Source: a virus. Taken from it: a stretch of DNA of 64,000 bases. This document shows positions 36,706 to 44,396 of the stretch, piece after piece. Location of the stretch: positions 29,435 through 93,434 of IMG/VR virus record IMGVR_UViG_3300044732_000704; one strand, given 5' to 3'. Below the pieces are notes generated by a model. The model saw nothing but the letters and a program-made list of their open reading frames with translations, was not told where the DNA came from and searched no databases. Position 1 is the stretch's first letter. Each line of letters starts with the position of its first letter. Made by a program: the position numbers and the translations under genes.

Positions 36706-36774
36706 TTTCAAATTAGCTATTGACAAATAAGAATCATGTGTTATTCTTTTTTATATCACAAATAAGGAATACAC

Positions 36775-37005
36775 ATGAATTTGAAAAAGCTAAGCAAGAC
36801 ACAGATTCGTAAACTTGCTAATAAAATTAGAATGTTGTTGACGCATCCGTCATATCAACGCTACAATGAACACAATTGGGGGATTGAACATAACGAAATG
36901 ATTGCTCGTGTTTGTTCTCTCAATTATGAACAATTACGTGAAGTGCTTAACTTGCATTATCGTAATCAGTGTGGTAGTTATTTTAAAGTAAAATTTGGAA
37001 TGTGA
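36775..37005 (+). CDS. Hypothetical basic protein
   Basis: 76 aa ORF after TTGACA-N17-TATTCT. Confidence 0.55.
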   Translation: MNLKKLSKTQIRKLANKIRMLLTHPSYQRYNEHNWGIEHNEMIARVCSLNYEQLREVLNLHYRNQCGSYFKVKFGM

Positions 37006-37024
37006 AATTCGATTAATTAACAAT

Positions 37025-37355
37025 GAGTCCCTAATGTTATGATGCCGCTGCTAACCACAGCGTTGGTAACATTGGCGTAGTATCCGAGTAGAGCAACTTT
37101 CGACGGATATTGCGTTAGCTGAGAAGCACTAAAGGAGTTGCCGGAGTCACAACCGTAAGTAAGTGGTTCTTACTGTGAGTTTATTCGCATATAGACTTGC
37201 TCAACAGATCAACACAGTTTGCTGCTGTGGAACGCCAGAGTGAGAGGTAAGCACAAGTCTATAGTCGAATGAGCTGAATGCGCAAGTAACGTTGCAAAGT
37301 AAGCCCGAAGGTTTTCCGGCTTAGCGTAACCGCTGAGGTTGCCAGCTCATTGCCT
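37025..37355 (+). ncRNA. Candidate structured non-coding RNA (about 330 nt)
   Basis: ORF-free, GC-richer than flanks, several long helices and a pseudoknot; strand inferred from neighbours. Confidence 0.55.
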
Positions 37356-37376
37356 ATTCAAACAAAAGGAAACATT

Positions 37377-37655
37377 ATGACCCCAGAGAATTTCTGTTAT
37401 TGGTTACAAGGATTATTAGAAATTGGTGATCCATCTATGCTGGATGCAAAGCAAGTATTAATTATTAAAGACCATTTGAATTTAGTGTTTAAGAAAGAAA
37501 CTACAACAATCAAGAATCCTACAATATCGGAGTGGTTACTATCGGATTCTCCTGTTCTTGATAAATTTAAAATAACCCAAGACCGAATTGATGTTGGTAA
37601 ACCATTACCAGATTACTTACGTCCTTGGTCAAGCCCTTTAACAATCACATGCTAG
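37377..37655 (+). CDS. Conserved phage protein (MTPENFCYWLQG family)
   Basis: Typical N-terminal motif; AAGGA RBS. Confidence 0.7.
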   Translation: MTPENFCYWLQGLLEIGDPSMLDAKQVLIIKDHLNLVFKKETTTIKNPTISEWLLSDSPVLDKFKITQDRIDVGKPLPDYLRPWSSPLTITC

Positions 37656-39777: not shown

Positions 39778-40740
39778 TTGAAAGAGAAGCGGAAAGGTAA
39801 ATATCGTCGTCTTACACAAGAACAATTTATTGAAAAATGTAAAGAGAACCAGAAAATAGAGTTAGACTATTCTAACCTTGTTTACCTGACTCAGCACGAG
39901 AAGTGCGAAGTGACTTGTATCAAGCACGGCAACACATATTGGCAAGATGCTCAATCAATGATGTTAGGTGGGATTGGATGCTGTGACTGCCTAAGAGAAT
40001 ATAAATCTAAAGTGGCTTCAAGTAATCTGCACGAGTTTATTAAAAAGTTGGACGCTAAATTCCCTGCACATGGTTTTGATTTTAGTAATGCAAAATACGA
40101 GAGAGCTTCTGTACACATAGAGGTGACTTGTAAGGAAGGTCATACTTTCAGAGCAAAGCCAAATAATTTAATGTCTGGGCATGGTTGTCCAAGTTGCTTC
40201 AATATAAGAAAAGGTCATCTTCACAACAAAGGTCGTGAAAGTTATATTCTTAAATTCAAAGCAGTTCACGGCGATTTATACGACTATTCTACTGTTTCAG
40301 AATTCAAGAACTGTAAACAAAAAGTGATTGTCACCTGCCCTACACATGGTGAATTTAGTATAACACCAGACAATCATGTTCAAGGTAAAGGTTGTCCTCT
40401 ATGTGGTGGAAGTGGTTTTCAACCACAGAAATCAGGAACATTCTACATACTTAAAGTAACTGACGATGTTATAAAGTTTGGTGTTACAAATAATATGGAA
40501 AGGCGTTTGAAGGAAATCAGACGCTACTCTACCTTTGATATAGAGCCTATGTATTTGTTCAATTTTGCTAGTGGTTATACAGCACTGGACATTGAGAATA
40601 AAGTCTACAGAAGTAAAGATATTATAAGAAAGGTAGTTTCGAAAGTAGATATGAAGCACGGTTATGTAGAGACAACGTACCTCTCTAATTTATCTAAGAT
40701 ATTATCTATAGTGTATGAATATGAAGACCAGCTTTTATAG
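39778..40740 (+). CDS. Free-standing homing endonuclease (DUF723-type zinc repeats plus C-terminal GIY-YIG/T5orf172-like domain)
   Basis: Three repeats ending C..HG...GC..C; FYILKV...IKFGVT...RR. Confidence 0.8.
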   Translation: MKEKRKGKYRRLTQEQFIEKCKENQKIELDYSNLVYLTQHEKCEVTCIKHGNTYWQDAQSMMLGGIGCCDCLREYKSKVASSNLHEFIKKLDAKFPAHGFDFSNAKYERASVHIEVTCKEGHTFRAKPNNLMSGHGCPSCFNIRKGHLHNKGRESYILKFKAVHGDLYDYSTVSEFKNCKQKVIVTCPTHGEFSITPDNHVQGKGCPLCGGSGFQPQKSGTFYILKVTDDVIKFGVTNNMERRLKEIRRYSTFDIEPMYLFNFASGYTALDIENKVYRSKDIIRKVVSKVDMKHGYVETTYLSNLSKILSIVYEYEDQLL

Positions 40741-40792
40741 CTGGCTCTTTTCTATAGTGCATTTAATTAGTGCATTATAAAAAAGGAGAAAT

Positions 40793-42610
40793 ATGAGTAA
40801 CAAAAGACCTAAAGTAACGAACAAGGCTCCTCCAAAAGAGATTGTAGAGATTGGACCTTGTTCTCCAATGCAAGAACTTGTATTCAAAAGAGCTACCGAA
40901 GTAGATTTCATGATCATCGGTGGTTCGCGTGGTAAATAGACCGCTGCCACGTAACCCTGCTAAGTCGGTGAAACCCTAACGTATAGACGAGGGCAATACC
41001 GAGCCGAACGATTAGATTCGTGGGTGTAGAGACTAAAGTAATGTCAAGCGACATGAAAACGTAGGGATGCTTTATTGCATAAGATATAGTCCGACAACAC
41101 CGGAAACGGTGGAAGTGCCTAGCGAACACATAACTGAGACTTGGGCGGCAAGTCTGAAGTAATAACTCAGATACCTCTAATGTGGCGAGATGATCCACGA
41201 TTCAACGGAATGTTTGTCCGTGTTCAGTATGACCAATTGACAGGTGCTGGTGGTTTGTGGGAGACTGCATACAAATACTACCCTCTCCTTGGTGCAAGAC
41301 CTATCAAATCTCCACCACCATATTATCAATTTCCTTCTGGTTGTAAGATTCGATACAAAGCTATTTCAAATCTTTCTGACGCTGAAAAAATGCGCGGCTT
41401 GCAACTTAGCTATTTGGGTGTGGATGAAATCACCCAAGTCCCGAAAGAGGCTCTTTTATTTTTACTTACAACTTTGCGCTCGGAAGCGAACATGAACTCT
41501 GTTTGCATCGGAACGTGTAACCCCCACAGGGAGAACTGGGTATATGACCTAGTTAAGTGGTATCTCGATGATGAGGGTTTTGTTGATAAGGCTAAGAATG
41601 GACAAATTCGTTGGTACGTAGTAAAAGATAATGACTTTATATTTGCCGATAGTGAAGAATGGTTTAGTGAAAACATGCCGGAGACGGTGTATATAACCAA
41701 CCCGTCCACTAATGAGCAAATGTATGTACCACCTAAAAAGTTTTGCTTTGTGCAACTAACAATTTTTGATAACCCAATACTCATCCGACTCAACCCGCGC
41801 TATCTGTCTGAACTTCAAAATTTACCTGAGCATGAAAGAGCCAGCCAGCTTTTCGGAAATTGGCACAGCGAGAGTGACAAGATAAAATTCTTCGACAGAA
41901 AATGGCTCAGGGGACAACATGGGGAAAGGGTCAAAAAATCCTTACCGGAAGGTTGTCAAAGAGTAGTAGCTTGGGATAAAGCTAACACAGAGTATAGTCC
42001 TAAGATTAAAAATACAGACGCAGACTTTACCGCTTGTATTCACATGGCTAAAGACAGTAATGGATTTTACTACATATATGGTGACTTTGCTAAAACTACT
42101 TTCGATGAACACGAACAAGTTTATGGGAAGTTTAGAAAAGCTGCCGGTGAGCGAGACCAATTAATGCTACTGCAAGCCAAACATGATGGTAGAGAGACTA
42201 AAGTAGTATTAGCTCAGGATGCCGGAGCAGACGGAAAGCAAGTGTTTCAAGAGATTGCCAAGAAGTTTGTTGCCGAAGGATTTAAAATATACCCTTCTGC
42301 CGCATCTGGTACAAGAAGTAAATCTTCTCGCTTTGAACCTTTCTTATCTGCGGCACAATCTGGTCTGGTGTTTATAGTAGAAGATAGTTTTCCTGATACT
42401 AGGACGCTGAATGCTTTCTACAGAGAGCTTGAACAATTTCAACCAAACGAAGACGGTAAGTGGCGCAGCAGCAGAAAAATCAAAGATGATTGGGTTGATA
42501 CAACAGCAGATTGTTTTAATTTCCTGTGCCGTGTCAAAACTTACACAGTCCCAAAACTAACCGCTCTCAACGATCCCACAATCAAAGCGCAATATGACCT
42601 TAATTCATAA
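40793..42610 (+). CDS. terL: Terminase large subunit, spliced: join(40793..40933,41144..42610)
   Basis: Splicing restores Walker A GGSRGGGKS; Walker B GVDEITQ, GTCNP, nuclease AWDKA and DDWVD. Confidence 0.9.
40934..41143 (+). mobile_element. Group I intron in terL (210 nt, no ORF)
   Basis: Exon ends in U, intron ends in G; IGS GCCACG pairs with CGTGGT; AAGTCGGTGAAA/AATACCGAG, GAGACTA and AAGATATAGTCC core. Confidence 0.9.
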
Positions 42611-42622
42611 TCTGAGGGGATA

Positions 42623-44396
42623 ATGTCAGAAACAATTCAAATTGAGAAAGCTGAATCTAATCCCTCTAGCTCAGACAGTCGTCTTCGCTTAGGGGAGATC
42701 GGCAATCCATATCTAAAAGCCATCGGGGGCTACATTGAAGAATCTGCTAAGAAAGAATTGCAGTTTCCTCATAGCCTCACCACATACGATAAGATGGCTT
42801 CTACCTCTGCTGTTAGCCAAGGCTTAACCGCTGGTGAAGTATTCCTTACGAAGTCCCTACTTGCTACAAAGTTTATCGCAGGTGTATCAGGAAGTCAAGA
42901 GTCAAAAGATTTTGCTGCCTTCCTCAACTGGAACATCAAGAACTTCGTCGGTAACAGTTGGTACGATGCCATCACAAATATTATCACATTCCGTAAATAT
43001 GGATTCGCTTGGCTTGAGAAAGTCTTTGCAAAGAATGATAGTATTAAGTGGTCTGGTAAATATAAATACAAATACGCAAAGCTTGCTCCTCGCGCTCAAA
43101 AGAGTGTTCGTGAGTGGGTGTTTGATGATGCTGTATTGAAGCGAGACTTAGTTGGTTTACATCAATGGATGCCAGCTACAGTTATTGGACAAAGTAATAT
43201 CAACCCTTTCACTGTACAAAACTTAACAGATAAATTTGTTCGTAGAGAAAAGTTTATGTTGTTTAGTTGGAACAGTACAGGTAACAACCCTCAAGGTAAA
43301 TCAGATCTATACGACTGCTTTAAATCTTGGAAAGAGCTTGAAATGATTACAAGCTATGAGGTTGTTGGGGTGAGCAAGGACTTGGGTAGAACTGCCCCCT
43401 TGTGTAGTAATGCACATTGAATAACTTTTCTAATTCGGTGAAACTCTTACCAAGTAATGTTGGAGACAATACCGAGCGAAGCTCAGTAATGAGAACGTGT
43501 AACGACTAGGCGTAAGCCGTAGGGCTAAGTAGCTCGAAATGGGAAGCATCCTTATAGGATGAAGATATAGTCTGAACTTTATGGAAACATAGAGAAGCGA
43601 ATAATGTCGCTGGAGTGAATTAACGACTCACTTTGAACAAATGGGTGTCCTTGTATTACGTGTCCCGAATGACCACATCAATAAAGCTGCTGAAGATGAT
43701 CAGAGCTTAGAAGCAAAAACACTCAGAGCATTACAAAAGAATGCTGCTGCTATTCATGCTGGCGATCAAACATATATCCTCTTAGGATCAGATACACATG
43801 GTGAAACAGGTAACGGTAAATACGTTTACGATGTTGAACTGAAGGGTGTCGATGGTGGCAGTAAAGCCTATAAAACCTCTGAACTAATCGAAGCTCGTAA
43901 GAAAGATATTCTTAACGTATTAGGTGCTTCCTTCCTTCTGGTTGGTCAAGGTGATACAGGTTCACACAGTCTATCAGATAGTTCTCGCAGTGTCCATGCT
44001 TTCTACATGGAACGTATGCTGATGTATATTAAAACAGTATTTGAGCGTGAGTTTGTTAAGTCTCTTGCAGACATTAATGAACTGAAACTTGAAGAAGATG
44101 ATATGCCAGTGATGACGTTTGGTGAGCTGGATGAAGCTGACCCAGAGAACAATGCTAAAGTGGTTCAGTTGATGGCTGGTGTTGGTATGATGGTTAAAGA
44201 TAAGTCAATCATTATTCAAGCACACAAGATGACTGGGTTCGATACAACAGAGATCGAGAAGCTCACTGAAGAAGAACTGTTAGCTAAGCTCACCCCTGAC
44301 ACAGCCCGTGTTGGTGAGAGTGGTGGTTCTAGTGGTACAGGTACAAGTCAGTTGAAGAATCCTAACTCTACAAGAAATATGGCAAATTCTGCATGA
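42623..44396 (+). CDS. Portal protein, spliced: join(42623..43387,43644..44396)
   Basis: DUF935-like portal after terL (YGFAWLEKV, GNNPQGKS, GSHSLS); splicing gives SKDLG|GVLVL in frame. Confidence 0.88.
43388..43643 (+). mobile_element. Group I intron in portal gene (256 nt, no ORF)
   Basis: AATTCGGTGAAA/AATACCGAG, AACGACTA and AAGATATAGTCT core; U at 5' exon end; terminal G. Confidence 0.9.

What the first reader, a model, noticed from the sequence alone, without database searches (positions are those of the whole stretch)
37025..37355. Unannotated pseudoknotted RNA candidate (about 330 nt)
Seen: helices CTAATGTTA/TAACATTGG (37031/37067), GCGTAGTATCCG/CGGATATTGCGT (37075/37104), TATAGACTTG/CAAGTCTATA (37190/37254), AATGAGCTG/CAGCTCATT (37268/37343) and TAAGCC/GGCTTA. 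The loop GCAACTT (37093) can pair with GAGTTGC (37135) as a pseudoknot. G-T pairs favour a plus-strand RNA. It does not match tRNA, RNase P or group I cores that I can recognise. Inference: a novel phage ncRNA.
Basis: partly seen in the sequence, partly recalled or inferred. Interest (0 to 1): 0.7.

Follow-up and report, generated by a model that had tools for sequence, protein, structure and literature searches.

The report
Chain of phage tRNA-island RNA modules
The gene-free 370 bases are real folded RNA, but they are a string of separate modules rather than one knotted molecule. The right-hand half belongs to an uncatalogued family of tRNA-shaped RNAs that many phages carry beside their tRNA genes and whose job is unknown.

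Summary
All six helices are at the stated coordinates. The 371-nt gap (37006-37376) has no ORF and no Rfam match, and it folds better than shuffles on the + strand only.

The reading as one ~330-nt pseudoknotted RNA is only partly supported:
- The proposed pseudoknot is no better than chance, and nothing comparative supports it.
- Relatives show that 37016-37367 is an accessory cargo slot. It is empty in one relative and holds tRNA-Met and tRNA-Arg plus RNA modules in others.
- The 3' half (37178-37352) is a cassette found in about 25 other uncultured phages. It has a ~22-bp stem (arms X and Y) capped by variable cargo, which is a real tRNA in one phage. A tRNA-shaped four-way junction (module E) follows.
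- Module E shows strong covariation: 28 of 28 pairs are kept in three phages, and 10 pairs change on both sides.
- An E-like core is unannotated in 214 GenBank phage records, often abutting tRNA genes.
- Earlier notes of this scan met that core on other DNA, inside what they called a phage tmRNA-like RNA.
- The 5' half (37025-37177) is unique to this phage and rests on thermodynamics alone.

Best guess: small stable tRNA-like RNAs cut out of the transcript, like T4 RNAC and RNAD. Function unknown.

The parts
36720..36747 (+). Sigma-70-like promoter (TTGACA, 16 nt, TATTCT with TG) ahead of the 76-aa ORF. It is the likely start of the transcript that runs through the RNA modules.
   Evidence: A TTGACA box sits at the same place in L008 and L057. 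This is a consensus match only.
36775..37005 (+). 76-aa ORF of unknown function. It is the left anchor of the slot.
   Evidence: no family match. It is 92-97% identical in five relatives.
37016..37367 (+). Accessory cargo slot. This whole stretch is missing in relative L008, where the two flanking genes lie 9 nt apart.
   Evidence: junction ...AAATTCGATTA|GGGAAACATTATG in L008. Other fillings appear in L005, L007 and L057.
37021..37028 (+). Y' (CAAUGAGU), a window-specific second partner for arm Z. The Y'-Z helix would close the whole 330-nt domain.
   Evidence: pair probability about 1. It is absent from the other family members, so it has no comparative support.
37031..37075 (+). Hairpin A: a 9-bp lower stem, then 5 bp (CGCUG/CAGCG) with a 7-nt loop.
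   Evidence: P 0.6-0.97. No homologue found.
37075..37115 (+). Hairpin B: a 12-bp stem with three G-U pairs and a 17-nt loop that carries the proposed pseudoknot strand GCAACUU.
   Evidence: P about 1. The pseudoknot partner is not above chance.
37116..37177 (+). Region C: weakly structured linker with a 6-bp hairpin at 37158-37174. It holds the other pseudoknot strand at 37135-37141.
   Evidence: A-C together give z=-2.15 on the + strand and -0.11 on the - strand.
37178..37275 (+). X-D-Y unit. Arm X (AGUUUAUUCG, 37178-37187) pairs with arm Y (CGAAUGAGCU, 37266-37275). This extends the D stem (37190-37199/37254-37263) to about 22 stacked pairs around a 54-nt apical cargo.
   Evidence: It is homologous to 24 other units whose arms read AGUUUAUUGGUUUGGUGUUU / AAACACC-A-AAARCCAAURAGCU. 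The inner stem is fully compensated in this window.
37264..37359 (+). Module E: a tRNA-shaped four-way junction.
- Closing helix Y-Z: 37268-37276 with 37343-37351.
- Hairpin 1: 37282-37295.
- Hairpin 2: 37300-37323, with conserved apex CGAAGG..UUCC.
- Hairpin 3: 37326-37342, with loop GCUGA, stacked on the closing 3' strand.
   Evidence: Model R1 finds L075 at 75 bits, E=1e-20. In three phages 28 of 28 pairs are kept and 10 pairs change on both sides.
37364..37655 (+). Ribosome-binding site (AAAGGAAAC) and 92-aa ORF (ATG at 37377; phrog_28500). It is the right anchor of the slot.

Best explanation
Position 37016-37367 is an accessory slot between two small phage genes. It is filled with a chain of independently folding RNA modules on the + strand, which are transcribed together with those genes.

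Shown:
- The 3' half is one copy of a portable phage RNA cassette.
- Part (i) is a ~22-bp stem (arms X and Y) that carries a variable apical domain. It descends from the leader/trailer-extended acceptor stem of a phage tRNA, and the tRNA body has been replaced.
- Part (ii) is module E, a tRNA-shaped four-way junction. Its last hairpin stacks on the closing helix where a T-arm would sit.

Inferred:
- Like tRNAs and the T4 RNAs RNAC and RNAD, these modules are cut out of the long transcript by the host's tRNA/rRNA-processing nucleases.
- RNase III would act on the two-turn stem. RNase P or RNase E would act at the acceptor-like helices.
- The products would persist as small stable RNAs that act in trans, most plausibly as tRNA look-alikes that engage a tRNA-binding host or defence factor.
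- Arm Y can pair with X or with Z, and both pairings covary. So excision of D may free Y to close E.

The 5' modules A-C are lineage-specific additions of unknown standing.
For: The stretch is structured RNA, not protein-coding:
- No ORF of 30 aa or more, no tRNA and no Rfam hit.
- Structure is specific to the + strand.

Slot polymorphism:
- L008 is empty.
- L007 and L005 carry tRNA-Met and tRNA-Arg plus X-D-Y-E-Z.
- L057 carries a tRNA-like element.

The X-D-Y family:
- 25 distinct units have outer stems of 18-28 pairs. Chance motif matches give 6-9 pairs.
- Inner-stem sequences are fully compensated in the window, L080 and L090.
- There are on average 3.5 G-U pairs per stem. The + strand is more stable in 24 of 25 units, mean -43.8 against -33.8 kcal/mol.
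- The cargo is an ARAGORN-called tRNA-Leu in L073 and a class-II tRNA-like body with a T-arm in L005.

Module E:
- 100% of cells pair, and 10 of 28 pairs change on both sides. Slid controls pair in 23-43% of cells.
- The Y-Z pair is G-C or A-U in 12 of 12 units across three E subtypes.
- E of L093 has a canonical T-arm.

Link to tRNA genes:
- Same strand and abutting in 6 of 21 loci.
- In GenBank phages, E lies inside the 12-tRNA cluster of ZC03 and just upstream of tRNAs in HC6, swi2 and KP591P1.

Analogy with T4:
- rnaC and rnaD lie at the end of the T4 tRNA cluster.
- rnaC folds as a closing helix plus hairpins plus a T-arm.
- Their roles are unknown (PMC3014915, PMC9697503).
Against: - No transcript or processing data exist for this or any family member. 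RNase III, RNase P or RNase E cleavage is inference from shape alone.
- This phage has no tRNA gene at all.
- The window has no terminator after E, although L052 has one.
- 15 of 21 family loci have no tRNA within 2 kb, and downstream genes vary: head protein, terminase, replication initiator, HNH endonuclease. A cis role in mRNA processing or stability fits equally well.
- Modules A-C have no homologue. They rest on a modest z-score of -2.15.
- The E subtype of this window is known from only three sequences.
- The arms were partly used as search patterns, so their invariance is partly an effect of how members were found.
Confidence: 0.45

Rival explanations
1. Cis-acting punctuation of a polycistronic mRNA. 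The long X-D-Y stem would be an RNase III-type processing site, as between phage T7 genes. Together with the compact E fold it would protect the ends of the flanking messages, or set translation of the downstream 92-aa gene through the X/Y/Z alternative pairings. No trans-acting RNA would be involved.
For: - The element is embedded between two co-oriented ORFs, with a promoter upstream and no terminator of its own.
- Family units sit directly upstream of highly expressed or varied genes: major head protein, terminase, replication initiator.
- The stems span two turns of dsRNA.
- Mutually exclusive helices are both kept.
- L052 ends with an intrinsic terminator right after E.
Against: - The apical cargo is long (40-130 nt), structured and conserved within sub-groups. 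It is a genuine tRNA in L073, which a mere cleavage site does not need.
- E occurs inside pure tRNA clusters with no mRNA to regulate (ZC03).
- The slot is dispensable in L008, where the same two genes lie side by side.
Confidence: 0.25
2. Selfish or decaying DNA. The slot would hold remnants of a former tRNA cluster, or a MITE-like mobile element with terminal inverted repeats (X/Y/Z). Its hairpins would matter at the DNA level, or not at all.
For: - The slot shows presence/absence and content polymorphism among close relatives.
- The same arms occur in unrelated phages and gene contexts.
- X, Y and Z are alternating inverted copies of one 9-11-nt word.
- The tRNA body of D is replaced or degenerate in most units.
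Against: - The stems carry 1-7 G-U pairs each (mean 3.5), and the + strand is more stable in 24 of 25 units. That points to RNA read from the gene strand.
- Compensatory changes keep 28 of 28 E pairs in three phages.
- Loop sequences are conserved while stems vary.
- No target-site duplication is visible at the L008/window junction.
- No transposase, reverse transcriptase or recombinase lies nearby.
Confidence: 0.12
3. A single closed ~330-nt RNA. Helix Y'-Z (37021-37028/37345-37352) would close one large multi-branched domain containing A, B, C, the X-D-Y hairpin and the three E hairpins. Tertiary loop contacts might be present.
For: - The thermodynamic ensemble gives Y'-Z and X-Y probabilities of about 1. 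It is 7.2 kcal/mol better than the Y-Z state.
- The loop of hairpin B is complementary to 37135-37141 and to the conserved apex of E hairpin 2.
Against: - Y' is found only in this phage.
- A-C have no homologues, so nothing tests the closing helix or the contacts.
- The loop complementarities are at chance level.
- In L052 and L075 the same E subtype closes on Y-Z, with covariation.
Confidence: 0.15

Closest known systems
Phage T4 small stable RNAs RNAC (species 1, rnaC, 139 nt) and RNAD (species 2, rnaD, 119 nt)
   Same: - They are non-coding RNAs encoded with phage tRNA genes on the same strand.
- rnaC folds as a closing helix plus long hairpins, with a T-arm next to the 3' closing strand. 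That is the layout of module E, most clearly in L093.
- Their function is unknown (PMC3014915, PMC9697503).
   Different: - There is no sequence or profile similarity. Model R1 does not hit the T4 region.
- The window's E has a 6-bp/5-nt-loop hairpin instead of a T-arm.
- This phage has no tRNA genes.
- The conserved X/Y/Z arms and the swappable cargo have no described T4 counterpart.
Unannotated E-core RNA of cultured phages (E. coli HC6 and swi2, Klebsiella KP591P1, Pseudomonas ZC03 and others). Earlier notes of this scan met it as the 3' part of a phage 'tmRNA-like' RNA.
   Same: - Both have a 9-bp closing helix.
- Both have the junction sequence GAAUGCGCA that starts hairpin 1.
- Both have a last hairpin stacked on the closing 3' strand.
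- Both sit beside tRNA genes.
- R1 aligns HC6 at 21.9 bits, E=1e-5, with a fully compensated closing helix.
   Different: - The window subtype has other loops (GCUGA, CGAAGG..UUCC) and lacks the GCUGA/UCAGC loop-loop complementarity.
- The window has no tmRNA-like tag frame upstream, whereas HC6, swi2 and KP591P1 do.
- The similarity is weak. I treat the link as superfamily level, not as proven.
tRNA (Rfam RF00005) and leader/trailer-paired tRNA precursors
   Same: - Arms X and Y plus the GGUGUUU/AAACACC stem flank a real tRNA in L073 and a tRNA-like body in L005.
- E is a cloverleaf-topology four-way junction.
   Different: - Neither ARAGORN nor the Rfam tRNA model calls anything in the window.
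- The window's D or E has no anticodon loop, D-loop or T-loop.
RNase III processing stems (rRNA operon stalks; intergenic sites of phage T7). This comparison is recalled from general knowledge.
   Same: A two-turn, ~22-bp duplex is formed by sequences flanking a structured RNA that would be released by cleavage. Internal loops are tolerated.
   Different: Cleavage has not been tested. The arm sequence is conserved across unrelated phages, which known RNase III sites do not require.

Membership tests
Phage X-D-Y / E RNA cassette (uncatalogued; defined here) | Arms AGUUUAUU (X) and AAURAGCU (Y), on the gene strand, flanking a cargo of 40-130 nt | tested here: met
   X lies at 37178 and Y at 37268.
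Phage X-D-Y / E RNA cassette (uncatalogued; defined here) | Continuous stem of about 20 bp or more formed by the arms and their inward extension, kept by compensatory change | tested here: met
   The window has 20 outer pairs. Its inner stem UAUAGACUUG/CAAGUCUAUA replaces GGUUUGGUGUUU/AAACACCAAAACC.
Phage X-D-Y / E RNA cassette (uncatalogued; defined here) | Arm Z (CAGCUYAUU) downstream, closing a multi-hairpin module on Y, with Y-Z covariation | tested here: met
   Z lies at 37343. G-C or A-U in 12 of 12 units. 28 of 28 pairs are kept in the window subtype. L075 scores 75 bits.
Phage X-D-Y / E RNA cassette (uncatalogued; defined here) | Abuts tRNA genes on the same strand | tested here: not met
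   The whole 93-kb genome has no tRNA. The feature is met in 6 of 21 family loci, so it is frequent but not defining.
tRNA (RF00005) | Cloverleaf with anticodon loop and T-loop, recognised by ARAGORN or the Rfam model | tested here: not met
T4 rnaC/rnaD-type stable RNAs | Sequence or profile homology to T4 rnaC or rnaD | tested here: not met
   R1 finds nothing in the T4 tRNA region. Only the layout is alike.
T4 rnaC/rnaD-type stable RNAs | Accumulates as a discrete processed small RNA during infection | not testable with these tools
   No transcript data are available for this uncultured phage.
tmRNA / phage tmRNA-like RNA | Tag-template reading frame (ending ..AA-stop) and a tmRNA model match | tested here: not met
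   The six frames show no tag-like frame. There is no tmRNA hit at E<=10. HC6, swi2 and KP591P1 do have a tag frame.
Group I intron (RF00028) | P3-P9 core matched by the Rfam model; interrupts a gene | tested here: not met
   There is no hit at E<=10. The downstream ORF starts at its own ATG, as in homologues. The same genome has a true intron at 43374-43594.
Bacterial Y RNA (YrlA) | Ro60 (TROVE) partner gene and a YrlA model match | tested here: not met
   No TROVE domain in the genome. No YrlA hit.
Retron ncRNA | Adjacent reverse transcriptase | tested here: not met
   No RVT_1 domain in the genome.
   The 7-bp complement exists. However, 61.5% of shuffles give such a partner, and no homologue of this part exists to test covariation.

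The most novel reading that the evidence does not exclude
The conserved X/Y/Z arms would form a natural, horizontally mobile RNA display and processing cassette. A sequence-conserved two-turn stem presents interchangeable cargo RNAs: a tRNA in one phage, unrelated folded domains in others. Cleavage of that stem would free arm Y to re-pair with Z and close the neighbouring tRNA-shaped module. That would be a processing-coupled RNA switch shared by many unrelated phages.
Probability: 0.15. Interest if true: 0.75.

Novelty: new variant of a known kind. Interest (0 to 1): 0.5.

Why it matters
Phage tRNA islands hold more than tRNAs. T4's RNAC and RNAD have been known for decades without a function.

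This window adds a sequence-defined, covariation-supported family, made of the X-D-Y stem cassette and the tRNA-shaped module E. The family is absent from Rfam and unannotated in more than 200 sequenced phages, including E. coli, Klebsiella and Pseudomonas phages that can be grown and engineered. That makes the old question of what these RNAs do testable by deletion and end mapping in laboratory phages.

For this particular window, the practical result is an annotation. It is a modular accessory RNA slot, not a single new ribozyme-like RNA.

Tried and rejected
Searches that found nothing:
- Rfam at gathering and at E<=10 found nothing in the region.
- blastn of the region against 50,697 phage records gave only chance 29-nt hits.
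- An exact 26-mer from hairpin B had no match in IMG/VR.
- Modules A-C had no significant match in five relatives' full records or in 960 kb of fetched loci.

Matches rejected as chance hits inside coding regions:
- L056 and L055.
- Most genome-contig hits, from Shewanella, Psychrobacter, Rheinheimera baltica, Nocardia and others.

Pattern scans:
- The Y..Z pattern in bacterial genomes gave 0 hits.
- The last IMG/VR scan was wasted on a pattern with one N too many. It says nothing about family size.

Readings rejected:
- Y RNA (no Ro60).
- Retron (no reverse transcriptase).
- tmRNA-like (no tag frame).
- Group I intron.

Literature:
- The IMG/VR structured-RNA catalogue (PMC10690425) could not be checked for this family, because no supplement is held.
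- Searches found no description of the family.

Full report
**What is there**

The window is part of a complete 93,434-bp uncultured phage genome with direct terminal repeats. Its large terminase is at most 43% identical to that of any GenBank phage.

- Between a 76-aa ORF (36775-37005) and a 92-aa ORF (37377-37655, phrog_28500), 371 nt carry no ORF of 30 aa or more on either strand.
- G+C rises to 0.43-0.46 against 0.30-0.37 in the flanks.
- The + strand folds at -114.6 kcal/mol, z=-3.26, with 0 of 100 shuffles as good. The - strand gives z=-1.33.
- ARAGORN finds no tRNA in the window or in the whole genome.
- Rfam 15 finds nothing in the region even at E<=10.
- A sigma-70-like promoter precedes the 76-aa ORF, and no terminator follows the structured stretch. 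The RNA is therefore most likely transcribed with its neighbours.

**The pseudoknot**

GCAACUU (37093) and GAGUUGC (37135) are complementary. With hairpin B held fixed and the rest shuffled, 61.5% of shuffles offer at least one equally good 7-bp partner for that loop. The real sequence has three further partners. No homologue of this part exists, so covariation cannot be tested. The claim is unsupported, though not excluded.

**The slot in relatives**

Protein-anchored searches found syntenic relatives.

- L008: the two ORFs are 9 nt apart, so window 37016-37367 is missing precisely.
- L007 and L005: the same slot holds tRNA-Met(CAU) and tRNA-Arg(UCU), followed by further structured RNA.
- L057, the closest relative (about 95% identical downstream): the slot holds a hairpin and a tRNA-like element that neither ARAGORN nor Rfam calls. 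The 92-aa gene is absent.

The region is therefore a dispensable, fast-turning cargo slot for RNA genes.

**The 3' half is a recurrent cassette**

The window, L005, L007 and an unrelated 73-kb phage (L052) share this order:

- arm X (AGUUUAUU..),
- a hairpin D,
- arm Y (..AAUGAGCUGAAU),
- a multi-hairpin module E,
- arm Z (GCCAGCUCAUU).

In L052 an intrinsic terminator follows directly.

Two pattern scans of IMG/VR and one of bacterial genomes brought the total to 25 distinct X-D-Y units. They lie in about 22 phage contigs and one Rheinheimera MAG contig.

- The usual form is 5'-(C/U)AGUUUAUUGGUUUGGUGUUU-[40-130 nt]-AAACACC-A-AAARCCAAURAGCUG-3'. This is a stem of 18-28 pairs with one bulged A.
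- Chance motif matches form only 6-9 pairs.
- Units found incidentally, with other inner sequences, keep the stem through complete compensation. These are the window, L080 at 368 and 845, and L090 at 1548.
- Stems carry on average 3.5 G-U pairs. The + strand is the more stable RNA in 24 of 25 units. This is an RNA feature read from the gene strand.
- The inner 7 bp plus the bulged A look like an acceptor stem with its discriminator base. In L073 the cargo is an ARAGORN-called tRNA-Leu(CAA). In L005 and L102 it is a class-II-like tRNA body with a T-arm.
- In the window the acceptor sequence is gone and the cargo is unique.

**Module E**

The window's E (37264-37359) aligns without gaps to L052. 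A covariance model built from those two sequences finds L075 at 75.1 bits, E=1e-20, with no non-canonical pair.

On the three sequences:

- 28 of 28 pairs are standard in every sequence.
- 10 pairs change on both sides.
- With partners slid by 1-3 columns, only 23-43% of cells pair, and 0-2 pairs change on both sides.
- 0 of 500 shuffles reach the observed covariation score.

Loops are conserved while stems vary: AAUG after the closing helix, CGAAGG..UYCC, and GCWGA.

The closing helix Y-Z is G-C or A-U at one position in 12 of 12 units. The two states cut across three E subtypes.

Topologically E is a cloverleaf whose last hairpin stacks on the closing 3' strand, where a T-arm would be. In L093 that hairpin is a canonical T-arm, GCAGG-UUCGAAU-CCUGC.

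**Alternative pairings**

Arm Y can pair with X or with Z.

- X-Y is supported by a G-C to C-G exchange in the window (AGUUUAUUCG/CGAAUGAGCU against AGUUUAUUGG/CCAAUGAGCU). It is also supported by the contiguous compensated stem.
- Y-Z is supported by the G-C/A-U covariation above.
- In the window a third copy, Y' (37021-37028), can take Z. The ensemble then puts X-Y and Y'-Z at probability of about 1 and disfavours Y-Z by 7.2 kcal/mol.
- Y' is unique to this phage.

Whether this is a switch, a folding order tied to processing, or a by-product of repeated arms is open.

**A wider family**

A blastn search with a metagenomic unit matched 214 GenBank phage records, among them 62 from Pseudomonas, 61 from Klebsiella and 35 from Escherichia. 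The matches fall on two short blocks:

- GAAUGCGCAGGCUGAUGCGC,
- GCCGG-AGAUCAGCA-CCGGC.

In seven of the eight records I fetched, both blocks are enclosed by a closing helix of about 9 bp, and its sequence differs from phage to phage:

- HC6: GUUGUGGUG/CACCACAAC.
- ZC03: AAUGCAGGUG/CACCUGCAUU.
- AP1: GGGCGG/CCGCCC.

The elements are unannotated and unmatched by Rfam. Their positions:

- ZC03: between tRNA-Arg and tRNA-Leu in a 12-tRNA cluster.
- KP591P1: 13 nt before tRNA-Ser, tRNA-Arg(tct) and tRNA-Met(cat).
- HC6 and swi2: about 100 nt before a tRNA.

The window-subtype model aligns HC6 at 21.9 bits (E=1e-5), with a compensated closing helix. I take this as a superfamily link, not as proof.

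Earlier notes of this scan met the HC6-type region in 267 genomes and read it as a phage tmRNA-like RNA. I confirmed the tag-like frames ANDDVVLMAA and ANEEMYLAVA upstream of the E-core in HC6, swi2 and KP591P1. I found no such frame in the window.

**The 5' half**

Hairpins A and B and region C (37025-37177) are stable on the + strand only: z=-2.15 against -0.11. They have no homologue in GenBank phages, in five relatives' full records or in 960 kb of fetched loci. Their status rests on thermodynamics.

**How it probably works**

Shown:
- It is a strand-specific, selection-maintained RNA structure.
- D derives from a tRNA, and E has a tRNA-like shape.
- Family members often abut tRNA genes.
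- The cassette is portable between unrelated phages and gene contexts.
- The slot is dispensable.

Inferred:
- The modules are excised from the polycistronic transcript by host nucleases that mature tRNA and rRNA.
- They persist as small stable RNAs, as T4 RNAC and RNAD do.

T4 rnaC and rnaD lie at the end of the tRNA cluster. rnaC folds as a closing helix, long hairpins and a T-arm. Their roles are still unknown (PMC3014915, PMC9697503).

A trans-acting tRNA-mimic role is the most economical guess. I rate the full processed-small-RNA model at about 0.45. The rivals are cis-acting mRNA punctuation (0.25), a single closed 330-nt RNA (0.15) and selfish or decaying DNA (0.12).

**Novelty**

The family is not in Rfam 15, and I found no paper describing it. 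An anonymous entry in the IMG/VR structured-RNA catalogue cannot be excluded (PMC10690425).

As a kind, non-tRNA structured RNAs of phage tRNA islands have been known since T4, and this scan has met them repeatedly. The conserved arms with swappable cargo and the covarying alternative pairings are new variations on that kind.

Noticed in passing
window 43374-43594: Group I intron (Rfam RF00028, 80.6 bits) between two portal-like ORFs (42623-43420 and 43641-44396). The portal gene appears to be split by the intron.
   Followed up: no
window 39778-42610: An HNH endonuclease ORF (39778-40740) lies just upstream of the large terminase ORF. The terminase match to phrog_979 begins only at profile position 177, which suggests a split or intron-containing terL.
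   Followed up: no
L129:1490-1631, L130:1488-1612, L132:590-695, L135, L136, L131, L133: E-core RNA of cultured phages. The loop of hairpin 1 (GCUGA) is complementary to the loop of the last hairpin (UCAGC). In the L005/L105 subtype the pair is UGGUG/CACCA. This could be a loop-loop kiss that forms a tRNA-like elbow. The window's subtype lacks it.
   Followed up: partly
L129:1200-1500; L132:250-610; L135:250-610: tmRNA-like tag reading frames (..ANDDVVLMAA**..ANEEMYLAVA*) lie about 200 nt upstream of the E-core in E. coli phages HC6 and swi2 and Klebsiella phage KP591P1. Rfam gives a weak tmRNA_permuted hit at L129:1214-1323.
   Followed up: partly
L073:13090-13164 and L075:5680-5759: Directly after arm Z, ARAGORN calls a tRNA with anticodon UUA (listed as 'tRNA-Stop') in L073. 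In L075 it calls a tRNA with an 8-nt anticodon loop (tacc).
   Followed up: no
L057:2775-2860: In the closest relative the slot holds a tRNA-like element with acceptor UCGUAGG/CCUACGA plus CCA and a T-arm-like GUGG-UUUGAUU-CCAC. Neither ARAGORN nor Rfam calls it, and the 92-aa gene is absent.
   Followed up: partly
L052:886-1817: About 930 nt without an ORF of 60 aa or more lie upstream of the cassette in an unrelated 73-kb phage. The stretch ends in an intrinsic terminator (GGAACC-UUUAU-GGUUCC-U5) right after arm Z, and may hold further RNA modules.
   Followed up: no
window 37095-37102 and 37306-37313: The loop of hairpin B (AACUUUCG) is complementary to the conserved apex of E hairpin 2 (CGAAGGUU). 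This is 8 bp with one G-U, is not above chance and cannot be tested by comparison.
   Followed up: partly
L113 and L120 (one 191-kb contig of a Rheinheimera MAG): Two identical X-D-Y units lie in one contig binned as Rheinheimera. This is the only bacterial-genome occurrence found. It may be a prophage or a mis-binned phage, and it hints at the host range of the family.
   Followed up: no
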